Part shown: piece by piece, positions 1 through 62,084 of the stretch | How the letters are laid out: the number at the start of each line of letters is the position of its first letter | Numbering within the stretch: the first letter of the stretch is position 1 | Source of the DNA: Octopus vulgaris | Lineage: Eukaryota | Length of the DNA: 64,000 bases | Assembly (NCBI GenBank): GCA_951406725.2 | Contig: OX597827.1 | Coordinates: 25,668,001 to 25,732,000 of the forward strand | Reading direction: 5' to 3' | Made by a program: the position numbers and the translations under genes | The notes under the pieces: generated by a model | Seen by the model: the letters and a program-made list of their open reading frames with translations, nothing else | Told to the model about the DNA's origin: nothing | Database searches by the model: none

Positions 1-525
1 ATATTATATTAAATTAGAGATGAAACCACTATTAGGCAAATCATACAATGAAAACTTAAGCCAATACATAAGATTAATTAATTTATAGTATTTTAAATAT
101 ATATCAAAATTATTAAAAAAAAGATATTGAGTATAACACTACCATCGTTTCATCGCTGTCCAATTCGTAAAAATATAGAGTTTATTATAAGTAAAATTAT
201 TATATTATATATATTATTTATATCTTAAAAATATTGTTTAAATATTTCTGATTATATTTTAGATATTTCAATCACCTGAAGATTGACTGTAACTCGAATT
301 TTTACGAATTGGACAGCCATGAAACGATCGTAGTGTTATACTCAATATCTTTTTTTAATAATTTTGACATATATTTAAAATAATATAAATTAATTAATCT
401 TATGTATTGGCTTAAGTTTTCATTGTATGATTTGCCTAATAGTGGTTTTATCTCTAATTTAATATAATATAATATTTTACTATAAAATTGGATCCCTGTG
501 AGTTTGGATTTATTCCCTAATATTT

Positions 526-530
<5 letters not shown>
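1..530 (+). mobile_element. Foldback Penelope-like/retrozyme-type short element (family F1, copy 1) carrying a hammerhead motif, ending in (TA)n
   Basis: 1-173 is the reverse complement of about 298-470. Hammerhead core at 273-335. Same 3' end (GTTTGGATTTATTCCCTAATATTTTATTA) as the adjacent copy at 569-945. Confidence 0.7.
273..335 (+). ncRNA. Type I hammerhead ribozyme motif
   Basis: CAC-CUGAAGA-(UUGACUGU...ACAGCCAU stem II)-GAAA-CGAUCG-UA|GUG. Stem I is CAC/GUG and stem III is short and palindromic; predicted cleavage after A332. Confidence 0.7.
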
Positions 531-568
<38 letters not shown>

Positions 569-569
<1 letters not shown>

Positions 570-938
570 TATTAAATTAGAGATAAAACCACTATTAGGC
601 AAATCAAACAATGAAAAACATAAGCCAATACATAAAATTAATTAATTTATATTATTTTAAATATATATCAAAATTATTAAAAGTTTAATAAAAGATAATG
701 ATAAAAGATAGTGTTTTACTCATTATCTTTTATTAAACCTTTAATAATTTTGATATATATCTAAAATAATATAAATTAATTAATTTTATGTATTGGCTTA
801 TGTTTTTCATTGTTTGATTTGCCTAATAGTGGTTTTATCTCTAATTTAATATAATATAATATTTTACTATAAAATTGGATTTAATCCTAAATCTGATTTT
901 TCCCTGTAAGTTTGGATTTATTCCCTAATATTTTATTA

Positions 939-945
<7 letters not shown>
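569..945 (+). mobile_element. Foldback element family F1, copy 2
   Basis: About 570-700 is inverted against about 720-850. Homologous to 333-530 and flanked by (TA)n on both sides. Confidence 0.7.
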
Positions 946-1390: not shown

Positions 1391-1925
1391 TGCCCTGATG
1401 CAGTAGCAGGCAGTGGCTCACATGGCTTCTGATCTTAACTGATTGTAAGTGTTATCATGTACATTGTTTTGTCTTGGTATAAAAGATGGTCTACAGCAAA
1501 AATTCTGCTCAATACCACAGATTTGCTTGTCAGTTGTTTAACCTTAACCAGTTGAACATGTCCCTTAGAGGCTGACGATATGTGCATCTCTGATCACGAG
1601 CAGAAGTAGTGGGGGGAGCATCATAGCCATGTGTTGAAAGGAATTCTCAGAGGTTTAAATAATTCACCTTTGGAAACATGGGTGTCCTTAAACAATCCTT
1701 ATTCAGGTACCTTTTGAGTGGGATGGGTTACTCGACCTGAAGAAAATTCTAACTGGGCCCCACCTGGAAGGTCATGCGCTGTTTATCTTGATATGAGATC
1801 ACAAGATATGGTTGTGATGCATGTGCCCGGTGCACCCTTATCAGACGGGTAGTCATGATTGGTATACTTGGCTTCGTATATTTTACCCCAGTGTCACTTT
1901 GATGGCATGCACTGCTCTCTCACTC
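1391..1925. mobile_element. About 540-bp non-coding interspersed repeat inserted in (AAT)n (family T, copy 1)
   Basis: Near-identical to the reverse complement of 61509-62084 and homologous to 2370-2914; both ends abut trinucleotide repeats. Confidence 0.85.
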
Positions 1926-1976
1926 AATAATAATAATAATAATAATAACAACAATAACAATAATAATAAATAAATA

Positions 1977-2914
1977 CCCTGATACAGTATCAGGCAGTGA
2001 CGCTCAATGATGTGATGCAGTAACAGTCTGTGGCTCTCCATGCCCTGATACAATACCAGGCACTGGCTCTCAATGCCCTGATGCAGTAGCTGGCAGTGGC
2101 GGCTGTCAGTGCCCTGATGCAATACCAGGAAGTGGTGCTCAATGCCTTGATTGAGTAACAGACAGTTCCTCTCAATGCCTTGATGCAGTATCATGCAGTG
2201 GCTCTCACTGCCTTGATCCAATAGAGGCAGTGATTCTCAGTGACCAGATGCAGTACAAGGCAGTGGCTCCCAATGCCCTGATGTAGGACCGAGCAGTACA
2301 TTTCAATGACCTCATGTGGTACGAGGTTAGTGACACTCGATACCCTCATGTAATACCAGGTTGTGGAACTCAATGCCCTCATTCAATAGCAGGCATTGGC
2401 TCTCTTGGCTTCTGATCTTAACGCATTGGACGTGTTATCTTATGTATTGCTGTATCTTGGTACAAAAATGTGTTACCGCAAGTATTCCTTGCTTGACAAT
2501 TATTTGACTTTAAACAGGTGAGCATGACCCTTGGTGGCTGAGGATATGTGAATCTGTGATTACAAGCTGAAGTAATGGGAGTGCATCATAGCCATGTGTT
2601 AAGAGGAATTGTTTGGGGTTTGGATACTTCACATTTAGTAACATGGGTGTTGTTCAACACCCTTAAAAGAGCCTTATTCATGGAACGTTTGAGCAGGATG
2701 GGCTACTCGACCCGAAGAAAATTCTAACTGGGCCTCACCTGCAAGGTCATGCGCTGTTTATCTTGATAATGATATCTCCATGTCACGTATATTTGGTTGT
2801 GATGCACTTGACTGGTATACTCTTTTCAGATGGGTAGTCATGAAGGTTATATTGGGCTTTGTATATCTTAACCCAGTGTCACTTTCATGTCATCCGCTGC
2901 TCTCTCGCTCTCTC
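1977..2914. mobile_element. Family T, copy 2 (more diverged) with terminal 33-bp minisatellite
   Basis: About 13 copies of CCCTGATGCAGTACCAGGCAGTGGCTCTCAATG at 1977-2405, followed by a body homologous to 1391-1925. Confidence 0.85.
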
Positions 2915-3599
2915 AATAATAATGATAATGATGATGATGATGATGATAATCTAAGGACGAAATTTTATAAATATCATAATACATCGTTACGCGCGCTTCC
3001 TCGAATGACATGTTGTTTTATAACTATAATCCGCATCCATAGAATGATTCCAATATAATTTGTAATATCCATGAATTTGGCAAGTCGTTAATCTTGTGTT
3101 CATTTCATCAGGCAATACACTATTATAGTTGGAAGTAACGTATGTTTAAGCGAAGGATGTTTATCAATTTTCCCCAATCTAAAGGTTCATTGAGCTATGT
3201 GGGCGGTCCTGTTTGTATTTGGACTAACCGCGTGTTAGTCCAAATAGTGACAATAAGAGGATGGAGATGGAAATGGTGTGATTGTAGAGAGTGTCTAGTT
3301 TGGGTAGGTGTCCTGTGTTATTAAGGAATAGGGATAATAGGGGAGAAAGAGGGGTGTATTGTAAGGCTTTTTATGTATGTACACCTTGGGATGTGGAACG
3401 CAGGTCACTGGTATGACTGTAAGCACAGCAGGCGTTCCTTTAATGAATTCAGATGTTGCAGTGCAAGGGAGCAAGTTTTGTTTTCACTTGCAGTTACACA
3501 CACACGCACACAGAAGTATATATATATATATATATACATATGTGTGTGTATTTGTGTGTGTATGTGTGTGTGACTGTGTGTTTGTGTGTGTGTGCATGT

Positions 3600-14835: not shown

Positions 14836-16218
14836 TGTTGACACTAAATATAAATTACTTCCCATTCTTGAGCAGCCAGTATACAATTGTCCATGCGATA
14901 AGCAGTGCTCTACCAAGGGAAGACTAGTCACAGAGAGGGTTTGACCCTGAGATTTGTTAATAGACATGGCAAAGCTGACACGAAGGAGGAATTGCAGTCT
15001 TCTGAACGTAAATGGGATTTCTGCTCCTGATGGAGTAAGAGGAATTCTTGGAATGAAGACGTCATCATTTTTTCCACATCCTGAAAGAATGATAACCTCT
15101 ATAACCTTTGACATCGTTTTCTTTATCAGCAGTTGTGTCCCATTGCAAAGTCTTGATAGCTCCATATTGCGGAGTAGCATTACAGGAGTTCCAACTTTAA
15201 GTGCTAATGTGTGGGGCCGAAGTCCAGGAGGCTTCAATAAATTGAGAAATTCATGATAGTTCGCCACTTCATTTTTATCAGGATAGAGCAGTTGAGCTTG
15301 CCGCTTAGTCTTTAGCCAGGTTGTCTCTGTATTTGAGCTATAGAGTGACAGGATCACACAGTTCGCATGTCTGTAGTAATACTGCAAATAGTGCCCTGAG
15401 ACTTGTAGGCGAATCTGAAAAAGCAGCCTCTCCCAAAGTTGCATCTCATTGTGCACCATTTTCTAACAGGCCTTGTCGATAGCAGGCTTCTGGTATGTTG
15501 TGCAGACATGTCCATGAACGGTTTTAAGGGCCTGGAAACACGTTGGCCTTCTGACCTCATGCAGTAGTAGACGGAGATAGAAGCACTCTTGTTGAGTGGG
15601 ATGCACTGAGTATACTTGCCCAAGACAAGTGTCAAACCTAATTCCAGGGTACCCATGAATATTTTGATCGGCTTTCCTTGGGGCCTATTTTGTTCCATTC
15701 CGAGTGTAGTACGATGGAATCTGTGGATACAGGAAGGTTTCAGCGAATTAATCAACTCGATAAAGCATTAGCATCGGTGAAGTACACCCTTTGATCGTTT
15801 TCCAGGCGCACTGCAAGCTGTTGAATAGCGGGGTGTCGTTGGTGAAGTGGAAAGCCAAAGATGCGCCAGAAAGCCTCGTTGCTATTTATGTACCGTCCTA
15901 CCTGATAGTGCATCACTTCATCCTGGCAGTATTCTTGTTGAAGTCCAAAAATTGCAGCGTCAGAACCATTGTTCACATAATTACAAACGTACTTTATGGA
16001 CTTAACGGAGTTGTAAAACTCAACGTTGATGTGGGCATGGAAAGTCTTTGACAAGATTGGGCAGTAGGGAACAATCCGTCTATTATCAACCTCGTACTGT
16101 CCGATAGTTGCTGTGAAACTGCCGTCTTCTGGTTTTCTCCGTATGTATGATGGATACCCATCAGCATCTGTCTGATTGTCTTGTAGGAACCTCCTTGGAA
16201 ACCTTTTCGAACATACAC
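14836..16218 (-). pseudogene. Helitron Rep/PIF1-helicase remnant with internal deletion
   Basis: DGYPSYIRRKPEDG, VDNRRIVPYCPILSKTFHAHINVE..SVKSIKY, EAFWRIFGFPLH and FYLRLLL (Rep region) are joined to LKVGTPVMLLRN, LCNGT, IPRIPL, FAMSINKSQGQTL and SHGQLY (PIF1 C-terminus); helicase motifs I-IV are absent. Confidence 0.93.
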
Positions 16219-17430
16219 AGAGTAGAGCAGATCAGAGAGCAGAGAGAGCAGAGCAGAGCACAAAGCAGAGCACAGAGCAGAGCAGAGGGAAGAGCAGAGC
16301 AGACAGCAGAGCAAACCAGAGCACAGAGCAGAGCAAAGGGCAGTGCAGAGCAGGGTACAGAGCAGAGCAGGGTACAGAGCAGAGCATAAAACAGAGCAAA
16401 GGGCCGAGTAGAGAGGAGAGCAGAGCAGAGCAGAGAGGAGAGCAGAGCAGAGCACAGAGAAGAGCAAAAACAGAGCAAAGCAGCGATCAGAGAGGAGAGC
16501 ATAGAGAGGAGAGAAGAGCAGAGAAGAGCACATAGCAGAGAAGAGAGCAGAGCAGAGAAGAGAGCTGAGCAGAGCACAGAACAGAGAGCAGAGCAGAGAG
16601 CAGAGCAGAACATGGAGCAGAACATAGGGCAGGGAAGAGAGCATTGCACAAGCAGAGAGCAGAACACAGAGCAGAGAAGAGAGCAGAGCAGAGCACAGAG
16701 CAGAGCAGAGCACAGACCAGAGTACAGAGCAGAGCACGGTGCCGAGCATAAGCAGAGTACAGAGCACAGAGAAGAGAAGAGAAGAGAGCAGAGCAGAGAG
16801 CAGAGAGGAGAGCAGGGCAGAACCCAGAGCAGAGCAAGGCACGGGCAGAGCACGGCGCAAAGCACAGACCAGAGCAGAGAACAGAGCAGGGCAGAGAGCA
16901 GAGCAGAGAACAGAGCAGAGTGCAGGGCAGGGCAGAGCGCACAGCAGAGCAAAGCACAGAGGAGAGAACATACCAGATCTCAGAGCGCACAACAGAGAAG
17001 AGCAGAGTGCAGCGCAGAGTAGAGAGAAGAGCACAGATTAGAGCAGCAGAACACAGAGCAGAACAGAGCACAGAGCAGCGCAGAGGGAAGAGCATAGCAC
17101 AGAGTGGAGCGCAGAGCAGATCACAGAGAAAAACAGAGCATAGAGCGGAGAATAGAGCAGAGCAGGGAGCAGAGCAGAAAGCAGAGAGCAGAGAGCAGAG
17201 AACTGACCAGAGAGCAGAGCAGAGCACAGGGAAGAGCAGAGCGCAGAGCAGGGTAGAGTATAGGGCTGAGGACAGAGCAGAGCAGAGAGCAGAGCAGAGA
17301 GCAGAGCAGAGCAGAGCAGAGCAGAGCATAGAGCAGAGAGAAGAGCAGAAAGTAGAGCAGAGCATAGAGCAGAGCACAGACCAGAGTACAGAGCTGAGCG
17401 CAGTGCAGAGCAGAACAGATTAGAACAGAG
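16219..17430. repeat. Degenerate (GAGCA)n pentanucleotide satellite, about 1.2 kb
   Basis: Directly visible; near absence of T on the + strand explains the stacked long ORFs. Confidence 0.95.
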
Positions 17431-61420: not shown

Positions 61421-61508
<88 letters not shown>

Positions 61509-62084
61509 GAGTGAGAGAGCAGTTCATGCCATCAAAGTGACACTGGGGTAAAATATACGAAGCCCAATATACCCATCATGACTACCTGTCTGATAAGGGT
61601 ACACCAGGCACATGCATTACAACCATATGTGCACGACATGGTGATCTCATATCAAGATAAATAGCACATGACCTTGCAGGTGGGGCCCAGTTAGAATTTT
61701 CTTCTGGTCAAGTAACCCATCCCGCTCAAAAGGTCCCAGAATAAGAGTTGTTTAAGGATGTTGAAAGAACCACCCATGTTTCCAGAGGTGAACTATTCAA
61801 ACCCCAAAGAATCCCTCTCAACACATGGCTATGATGCTCCCCCACTACTTCTGCTCGTGATCAGAGATGCACATATCGTCAGCCACTAAGGGACGTGCTC
61901 AACTGGTTAAGGTCAAACAACTGACAAGCAAATCTGTGGTATTGAGCAGAATATTTGCTGTAGCCCATCTTTTATACCAAGACAAAACAATGTACATGAT
62001 AACACTTCCAATCAGTTAAGATCAGAAGCCATGAGAGCCACTGCCTGGTACTGCATCAGGGCACTTGGTACTGCATCAGGGCAC
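61509..62084. mobile_element. Family T, copy 3 (opposite orientation) within (ATT)n
   Basis: Reverse complement of 1391-1925; terminal motif TGGTACTGCATCAGGGCA is duplicated. Confidence 0.88.

What the first reader, a model, noticed from the sequence alone, without database searches (positions are those of the whole stretch)
273..945. Second foldback copy begins exactly at the predicted ribozyme cleavage site of the first
Copy 1 reads GAAACGATCGTA|GTGTTATACTCAATATC with cleavage predicted after A332. In copy 2 the sense arm starts at ...AAAGATA|GTGTTTTACTCATTATC (G711), and upstream homology stops within the TA. This is the expected footprint if a self-cleaved RNA was reverse transcribed to its 5' end and then folded back or template-switched. 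It rests on a single junction.
Basis: partly seen in the sequence, partly recalled or inferred. Interest (0 to 1): 0.72.

Follow-up and report, generated by a model that had tools for sequence, protein, structure and literature searches.

The report
Penelope copies end behind ribozyme cut
The two mirror-image repeats are separate insertions of an abundant Penelope-type jumping gene, and across the genome its copies break off about eight times more often in the 30 bases just after the predicted cut site of its small self-cutting RNA motif, which likely means that self-cut RNA is one of the templates the element copies.

Summary
Partly confirmed. A minimal type I hammerhead motif lies at 273-335, with a predicted cut at A332|G333. 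Copy 2's sense arm starts at 709-711. The TA there is ambiguous and a 9-nt re-copy precedes it, so this single junction proves nothing. Copies 1 and 2 are independent insertions, from two subfamilies, of a Penelope-like element (PLE) that resembles the Hydra clade (5338 exact 26-mer hits).

The proposed test gives a zone, not a spike. In 58 unbiased arms, 24 end at -2..+30 of the cut (2.0 %/nt, against 0.2 downstream and 0.3 upstream), and the excess survives composition matching. Genome-wide bins give 3 and 8 ends upstream, 44 at -2..+1, then 154 and 252. Only +1 shows joins without microhomology. Spliced copies form a second ~30-nt zone at the inferred transcription start.

A sister family shows a weaker zone (0.7 vs 0.2 %/nt) and only a twofold step. 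Self-cut RNA as one template is likely (0.57); stalling on uncut RNA remains open. Strict snap-back is not supported. Earlier scan notes saw similar stops on other DNA.

The parts
1..182 (-). Copy 1, antisense (short) arm, element positions -42 to about +144; begins a few bases before the window, next to (TA)n
   Evidence: (L001)
175..262 (+). Copy 1, 3' end of the retained ~0.9-kb spliceosomal intron (branch-point-like TTCTGAT 246-252, AG 261-262); sense arm starts at -158 and overlaps the antisense arm by 8 nt
   Evidence: spliced genomic copies join exon 1 to base 263
273..335 (+). Minimal type I hammerhead motif; predicted cut A332|G333; palindromic helix III ACGATCGT (324-331), predicted to work as a dimer
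   Evidence: no Rfam hit; cleavage not tested
333..528 (+). Copy 1, sense arm downstream of the cut, including the ~70-nt one-sided tail; ends at (TA)n
529..562 (.). (TA)n microsatellite between the two insertions (target)
558..701 (-). Copy 2, antisense (short) arm, +144 to +10, subfamily 2
702..710 (.). 9-nt re-copy of 689-697 at the head-to-head junction; its last two bases (TA) also match element -2/-1
711..945 (+). Copy 2, sense arm from +1 (or -2/-1) through the tail, followed by (TA)n 944-991
   Evidence: L149 is this junction

Best explanation
The two foldbacks are independent insertions of the terminal repeat of a Penelope-like retrotransposon, and the pile-up of copy ends just behind the predicted hammerhead cut likely records that self-cleaved RNA is one of the templates that the element's enzyme copies. 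Shown by sequence: the element (RT plus GIY-YIG-type ORF, exon 1, intron, hammerhead, two fixed 3' ends at about +144 and +213-220, (TA)n targets) and two ~30-nt zones of 5' ends, one starting in exon 1 and one starting at the predicted cut. Inferred: the protein nicks both strands of a (TA)n tract and starts cDNA at the two internal sites, as shown in vitro for PAc. Each cDNA runs to the 5' end of its RNA, either the start of an uncut transcript or the ribozyme-made end at +1. The cDNA end then loses 0-30 nt while finding microhomology with the target or with the other cDNA, which gives solo arms or head-to-head foldbacks. Copy 2 would come from cut RNA; copy 1 comes from uncut, unspliced RNA.
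For: (1) Unbiased arms: +31..+95, 8 ends, 0.22 %/nt; -2..+30, 24 ends, 1.97 %/nt; -3..-70, 5 ends, 0.31 %/nt (58 of 101 arms had coordinates). Solo arms alone give 2/15/4 ends (p 4e-7). (2) Genome-wide bins, subfamily 2: -11..-7: 3; -6..-3: 8; -2..+1: 44; +2..+9: 154; +10..+17: 252. (3) Composition-matched rates stay about tenfold apart: AT>=0.8 gives 2.11 vs 0.22 %/nt, U>=0.6 gives 2.71 vs 0.14. The 81%-AT intron gives 0.12 %/nt and the AT-rich loop II 0.34. (4) Tail arms (9 of 23) and short arms (15 of 35) end in the same zone, so the effect is one of position, not distance from the start. (5) At +1, (TA)n flanks join in either phase (8:7, or 8:6 without a duplicate). At +9 and +17 they join only in the microhomology phase (21:0 in 60 loci; p 0.002). 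(6) Positive control: 18 of 75 arms end within -76..-107, the exon-1 start of spliced copies. (7) The sister family has the same two zones, 19 of 92 arms at -2..+30 (4.3-fold, p 4e-4). It includes one foldback with both arms ending at +1 and one copy joined at +1 to an A20 tract. (8) The ribozyme keeps its core, triplet and a palindromic helix III across both families (CGATCG vs CAATTG/CGATTG).
Against: There is no dominant spike at +1 (44 of 787 arms), and ends are densest at +7..+17. The sister family's step is weak: 13 ends over 3 nt vs 10 over 5 nt upstream (p 0.05). Its ends avoid the GC-rich +1..+7 (1 of 92 arms) and gather at a U7 run. Mixed foldbacks exist, with one arm at +9..+62 and the other upstream of the ribozyme (4 of 27 sister-family pairs; L079 and L112/L266 in family 1). 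The motif is poor by canonical standards: no G10.1-C11.1 pair, and an A-G mismatch at stem I pair 3 in 41 of 113 family-1 copies. The variant that by eye travels with that mismatch is as common among +1 ends (27 of 44) as among all arms (about 58 of the 100 listed; eye counts). For PAc, catalytic mutants did not change insertion in vitro and no RNA reads began at the cut (PMC11167929). Earlier scan notes on other genomes place ends at the ribozyme's front edge instead (untested).
Confidence: 0.57

Rival explanations
1. The RNA is not cut. Reverse transcriptase coming from the 3' side stalls or falls off at the foot of the folded ribozyme (or its dimer helix III at -9..-2, or a bound protein), and trimming spreads the ends over 30 nt.
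For: It predicts the same upstream edge. The family-1 helix III self-duplex is stronger (-10.0 kcal/mol) than the sister family's (-5.8/-6.4), in line with the stronger zone. Mixed foldback pairs need no cut RNA. PAc inserts from unprocessed RNA in vitro.
Against: The sister family has better stems I and II yet fewer ends. Ends inside the ribozyme's own hairpins are at background (0.30 %/nt). Microhomology-free joins peak at +1, the scissile bond, after stem I has been read.
Confidence: 0.25
2. No special RNA end exists. The U-rich, AT-rich stretch after +3 gives weak RNA:DNA hybrids and easy microhomology with (TA)n, the GC-rich ribozyme gives neither, and palindrome-centre deletions add to the bias.
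For: Within the zone, ends favour U-rich and AT-rich positions. About half of the 100 listed ends at +2..+9 use the TA at +7/+8 (eye count). The sister family's ends skip GTGGCGG.
Against: Equally U-rich or AT-rich positions outside the zone have 10-20-fold lower rates. Solo arms without a palindrome show the zone. Joins at +1 ignore TA phase.
Confidence: 0.1
3. A second transcription start at or near -1/+1 makes a shorter RNA, so the zone marks a promoter rather than a cut.
For: The zone has the same ~30-nt width as the exon-1 zone. Earlier notes explain similar clusters in other PLEs by starts (untested).
Against: The edge coincides with the conserved scissile bond in two families whose flanking sequences differ. 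No promoter evidence was obtained.
Confidence: 0.08

Closest known systems
Hydra-clade C-terminal EN+ Penelope-like elements (Craig et al. 2021, PMC8557442; section 11, passages and supplement hits seen), including Hydra-1_Obim
   Same: DKT motif, CxCX5C linker, CxxC and CxH motifs in the endonuclease, hammerhead in the terminal repeat, (TA)n targets, inverted 5'-truncated copy and one-sided tail.
   Different: By eye a different family from Hydra-1_Obim (other protein and ribozyme sequence). KWK in place of RWK, Asn-rich ORF inserts, unit about 5-6 kb, tail about 70 nt, and a 0.9-1.8-kb intron just before the ribozyme with both spliced and unspliced copies inserted.
Poseidon from Anolis carolinensis, PAc (Frangieh et al. 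2024, PMC11167929; parts 1-2 of 4 read)
   Same: Two internal reverse-transcription starts that define the tail, nicking and extension of both strands in AT-rich DNA, and a hammerhead in the pLTR.
   Different: For PAc, cleavage was dispensable in vitro and no RNA reads began at the cut. Here genomic copies pile up behind the predicted cut.
[quoted passage not shown]
   Same: Short helix I, long helix II, small palindromic helix III predicted to act as a dimer; a self-processing role was proposed; D. virilis has an intron ending next to helix I.
   Different: No G10.1-C11.1 pair here. In the parts read, that paper gives no map of 5' truncations and says in vivo evidence is absent.
R2 non-LTR retrotransposon with HDV-like ribozyme (Eickbush et al. 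2013, PMC3774820; abstract and part 1 of 2 of the Discussion read)
   Same: A ribozyme cut sets the RNA 5' end, and junctions are variable through microhomology and untemplated bases. This is what the element works like under my best reading.
   Different: Different ribozyme class and retroelement class. In R2 the cut frees the whole element from an rRNA co-transcript. Here only part of the copies end behind the cut, and they are short terminal-repeat stubs.

Membership tests
EN+ Penelope-like element | Single ORF with RT and C-terminal GIY-YIG endonuclease, linked to this repeat | tested here: met
   ORFs of 612 and 745 aa directly upstream of exon 1-intron-hammerhead in L328 and L327, with YRDD and VVY..IYIG read by eye; intact 838-aa sister ORF, 79% identical. 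Pfam and PDB give no hit.
EN+ Penelope-like element | pLTRs in partial tandem, adjacent inverted 5'-truncated copy, one-sided tail | tested here: met
   L189, L328, L350; two 3' ends, 147 short and 115 tail arms among 262
Hydra clade | DKG modified to DKT | tested here: met
   SDKTRN in L327 and L347
Hydra clade | CxCX5C linker; CCHH replaced by CxxC and CxH | tested here: met
   CTCRDKTKC, CYLC and CRH/CKH read by eye
Hydra clade | N-terminal RWK motif | tested here: inconclusive
   RIKWKA, a conservative R to K change
Hydra clade | Insertion into (TA)n and presence of a hammerhead | tested here: met
Hydra clade | Placement in the clade on an RT phylogeny | not tested
   No reference PLE proteins were available as session sequences; motif comparison with the paper's alignment by eye only
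Minimal type I hammerhead | CUGANGA and GAAA cores, NUH triplet, palindromic helix III | tested here: met
   113 family-1 and 92 sister-family motifs retrieved with a pattern that requires the cores; helix III pairs kept in 108-111 of 113 and 91 of 92
Minimal type I hammerhead | Helices I and II paired | tested here: inconclusive
   Sister family: 4-bp stem I, 5-bp stem II. Family 1: stem I pair 3 kept in 70 of 113, pair 4 in 3 of 113; stem II has an A-C mismatch. The monomer hammerhead fold is not the predicted minimum-energy structure.
Minimal type I hammerhead | G10.1-C11.1 closing pair | tested here: not met
   U-U or A-U in family 1, U-A or A-U in the sister family
Minimal type I hammerhead | Self-cleavage activity | not testable with these tools
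   Only assembled contigs of guessed RNA runs were available
Non-LTR retrozyme (non-autonomous tandem hammerhead repeat) | Protein-free tandem units, each with a hammerhead | tested here: not met
   The repeat is the end piece of a protein-coding element and occurs as solo arms or head-to-head pairs

The most novel reading that the evidence does not exclude
The genome holds a population-scale fossil record that a PLE hammerhead cuts in vivo during retrotransposition. Close to half of this family's insertions were copied from ribozyme-cut RNA, so the ribozyme acts as a switch that turns the element's RNA into short, promoter-less templates, and its dimer strength tunes how many copies are born dead.
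Probability: 0.3. Interest if true: 0.72.

Novelty: new member of a known kind. Interest (0 to 1): 0.52.

Why it matters
What hammerheads do in Penelope-like elements is stated as unclear (PMC8557442), and the one in vitro system found cleavage dispensable (PMC11167929). A family with thousands of copies, in which the RNA start and the predicted cut each leave a measurable zone of 5' ends, gives a genomic readout of cleavage and a specific RNA end to look for. My seven paper searches listed no paper whose title or abstract start points to a map of PLE truncation points against the cut site, and none of the passages read gave one. The 2005-2006 and 2017 Arkhipova papers were not seen. The element type, the ribozyme and the foldback shape are all known.

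Tried and rejected
Rfam: no family. Pfam and PDB sequence searches did not recognise the ORF or three of its homologs. A homolog search with the endonuclease part alone found nothing; the longer ORF found 41 mostly unnamed proteins. RNA evidence: no holder on record as RNA, contigs only. Laying four of them on the sister family's repeat gave no information on RNA ends, so this counts neither way.

Rejected readings: copy 2 as a product of copy 1 (different subfamily variants); strict snap-back of one cDNA (arm asymmetry runs both ways); a fixed processivity limit (tail and short arms end at the same place); a Neptune-type linker, my first guess from memory (the Hydra motifs fit better); a retrozyme.

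One search was swamped by TA repeats and redone. Two rows of the alignment were cut at wrong coordinates, so pair counts come. The Fisher values printed double-count pairs, so the permutation value is used.

Full report
NUMBERING. +1 is G333, the first base after the predicted cut; -1 is A332. 'Family 1' is the window's family and 'family 2' a sister family. An 'arm' is one copy of the terminal repeat in either orientation.

THE OBSERVATION. The window starts with two head-to-head inverted repeats flanked by (TA)n. Copy 1 carries a minimal type I hammerhead at 273-335: CAC, CTGAAGA, stem II, GAAA, the palindromic CGATCG, the triplet GTA and GTG. Rfam has no match. In copy 2 the antisense arm ends at +10 (base 701), nine bases re-copy 689-697, and the sense arm starts at G711. 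The TA at 709-710 fits both sides, so the end is -2, -1 or +1. The arms of copy 1 share private variants and the arms of copy 2 share others, so these are two independent insertions from two subfamilies. Copy 1's sense arm starts at -158 and its antisense arm at -42, so it read through the ribozyme.

WHAT THE ELEMENT IS. A 26-mer at about +100 has 5338 exact matches in the 2.8-Gb genome. Long copies (L189, L327, L328, L330) show an RT plus GIY-YIG-type ORF, a 3' UTR, a short exon ending at AA|GTATGT, a ~0.9-kb intron ending TTCTGAT..TTTTAG, and then the ribozyme. Many short copies join that exon directly to base 263, so spliced sense RNA is a template (sequence shown; splicing inferred from the GT-AG ends). 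All arms have one of two 3' ends, about +144 or +213-220, at (TA)n (147 and 115 of 262 arms). No tree was built, and Pfam and PDB do not recognise the protein. Family 2 has intact 838-aa ORFs, 79% identical, its own exon and 1.0-1.9-kb intron, and 3091 matches of a 25-mer. The host is likely an octopus (inference from a homolog name and notes).

THE RIBOZYME. Among 113 family-1 and 92 family-2 motifs in fetched loci, found with a pattern that requires the cores, helix III stays paired and palindromic: CGATCG in family 1, CAATTG or CGATTG in family 2. Family 2 has a 4-bp stem I and a 5-bp stem II. Family 1 is weaker: stem I pair 3 is A-G in 41 of 113, and neither family has G10.1-C11.1. The self-duplex of helix III is predicted at -10.0 kcal/mol in family 1 and about -6 in family 2. 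Cervera and de la Pena (PMC4209133, parts 1-2 read) describe such motifs as dimer-acting, with low activity in vitro.

THE TEST, UNBIASED SAMPLE. I fetched the loci of the first 100 listed matches of the 26-mer on C1, which gave 101 distinct arms. Of these, 58 could be given coordinates; 43 were set aside as long AT-expansion variants or too short to assign. Ends: 8 at +31..+95 (0.22 %/nt), 24 at -2..+30 (1.97 %/nt, 95% interval 1.26-2.93), 5 at -3..-70 (0.31 %/nt), 15 in the exon-1 zone and 6 further up in unspliced copies. The ratio to both flanks is 7.8 (p 1.5e-9); solo arms alone give 15 against 6 (p 4e-7). If some of the seven shortest unassigned arms belong here, the downstream rate would rise near +85..+95, but not the rate beside the zone. 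Matching on composition leaves the contrast: 2.11 vs 0.22 %/nt at AT>=0.8 and 2.71 vs 0.14 at U>=0.6. A second sample, 75 of the 76 C1 arms with +1..+27 intact, gives 5 ends at -2..+1, 13 at -3..-70 (0.30 %/nt), 18 at -76..-107 in exon 1, and 0.12 %/nt along the 81%-AT intron.

THE TEST, WHOLE GENOME. Patterns that demand intact sequence downstream and mismatches upstream counted subfamily-2 ends in bins: -11..-7: 3; -6..-3: 8; -2..+1: 44; +2..+9: 154; +10..+17: 252; 787 arms have +1..+27 intact. Anchors and filters differ between bins, and some hits are small internal indels (1 of 44, at least 1 of 8, roughly 7-10 of each 100 listed downstream, by eye), so the ratios are approximate. The picture is a step of five- to tenfold at the cut and a zone behind it, not a spike. 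At +1, (TA)n flanks join in both phases (8:7; 8:6 after dropping a duplicated locus). At +9 and +17 they join only in the phase that gives microhomology (14:0 and 7:0 in the first 30 loci of each; p 0.002). Fifteen of 37 joins at +1 outside TG repeats have no matching base upstream, more than the 18% expected if ends were spread over three positions (p 0.001). That expectation rests on my assumed flank composition. This is the mark expected of a physical template end.

THE SISTER FAMILY. In 92 arms (the first 91 listed matches plus arms in the same loci), 1 ends at +31..+45, 18 at +8..+30, 1 at -2..+7, 6 at -3..-43, 36 at -44..-75 (the exon-1 zone and its edge) and the rest far upstream. The zone is 0.73 vs 0.07 and 0.21 %/nt (4.3-fold, p 4e-4). 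The step at the cut is weak. The bin -2..+1 holds 15 hits, 13 after removing deletions. The bin -7..-3 holds 11, 10 after removing one. The bin +2..+7 holds 34, about 19 after removing indels, by eye. Ends avoid the GC-rich first seven bases, so composition decides where within the zone a join forms. One foldback has both arms ending at +1 (L393) and one copy is joined at +1 to an A20 tract that follows another copy (L397); these are single cases.

HOW THE FOLDBACKS FORM. Snap-back of one cDNA predicts that the tail arm always reaches further 5'. It does so in 6 of 8 and 10 of 18 pairs; the short arm does in 2 and 6. The two arms of a pair tend to be of one kind: in family 2, 5 of 27 pairs have both ends behind the cut, against 1.8 expected (p 0.003), though 4 pairs are mixed. 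Central deletion in palindromes could also cause this concordance. The fit is to two cDNAs, primed on opposite strands from the two internal starts and joined head to head. This rests on the in vitro behaviour of PAc (PMC11167929) and is inferred here.

READING. Two ~30-nt zones of ends, one at the inferred transcription start and one from the predicted cut, are most simply two RNA 5' ends plus trimming at joining, as described for R2 (PMC3774820). I put this at 0.57. Stalling at the fold on uncut RNA predicts nearly the same map (0.25). It gains from mixed pairs, from the poor family-1 stem I that does not seem to lower truncation, and from PAc, where cleavage was dispensable. Composition alone (0.10) and a second start site (0.08) remain. 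No RNA-level evidence could be had.

LITERATURE AND EARLIER NOTES. Seen: PMC11167929 and PMC4209133 (parts 1-2 of 4 each; supplements not seen, and Fig. S2 of the first bears on RNA ends), PMC8557442 (passages, section 11, supplement hits), PMC3774820 (abstract, half of the Discussion), PMC3846280, PMC6431247 and PMC13282606 (passages), bioRxiv 10.64898/2026.07.22.740005 (part 1 of 5). Earlier unreviewed notes of this scan report copies stopping at the predicted cut in another family of this genome and in a shark PLE, and at the ribozyme's front edge in several other genomes. I did not test those.

VERDICT. A new member of a known kind of element. The single junction is ambiguous, but it sits at the edge of a real, quantified pattern that makes an open question testable. 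Interest 0.52.

Noticed in passing
L002, L189, L330 (exon 1/intron) and spliced copies such as L253, L104; family 2 L347-L357 and L374, L429, L436: Both spliced and unspliced RNAs are retrotransposed in large numbers. Spliced copies all stop in exon 1, which marks the likely transcription start. Family 2 uses two 5' splice sites 4 nt apart.
   Followed up: partly
L053, L062, L064, L116, L328 (about +45 to +60 of the repeat): Older subfamilies carry a long AT-rich expansion behind the ribozyme, and some have a loop II extended by 24 nt; their 5' ends were not mapped.
   Followed up: no
L327:3393-5627, L328, L347: The ORF has long Asn-rich inserts between RT and endonuclease, as reported for Adineta Penelope elements (PMC3846280, passages).
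   Followed up: no
L397 (G000:C8:73218259): Tandem junction: a ribozyme-bearing copy ending at about +41, an A20 tract, then a copy starting exactly at +1. It may be a template jump from a cut 5' end onto a polyadenylated RNA.
   Followed up: no
window 1391-2932 and 61465-62063: Another repeat family: two diverged ~560-bp copies separated by thirteen 33-bp units, flanked by (AAT)n, with an 80-90% identical copy on the minus strand near 62 kb.
   Followed up: no
window 16218-17430: 1.2-kb purine-rich CAGAG/AGAGCAG satellite with strong strand skew.
   Followed up: no
L329:3-1388: A 462-aa open frame without introns that looks by eye like a membrane transporter of the major facilitator type, next to a PLE copy; possibly a retrocopy.
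   Followed up: no
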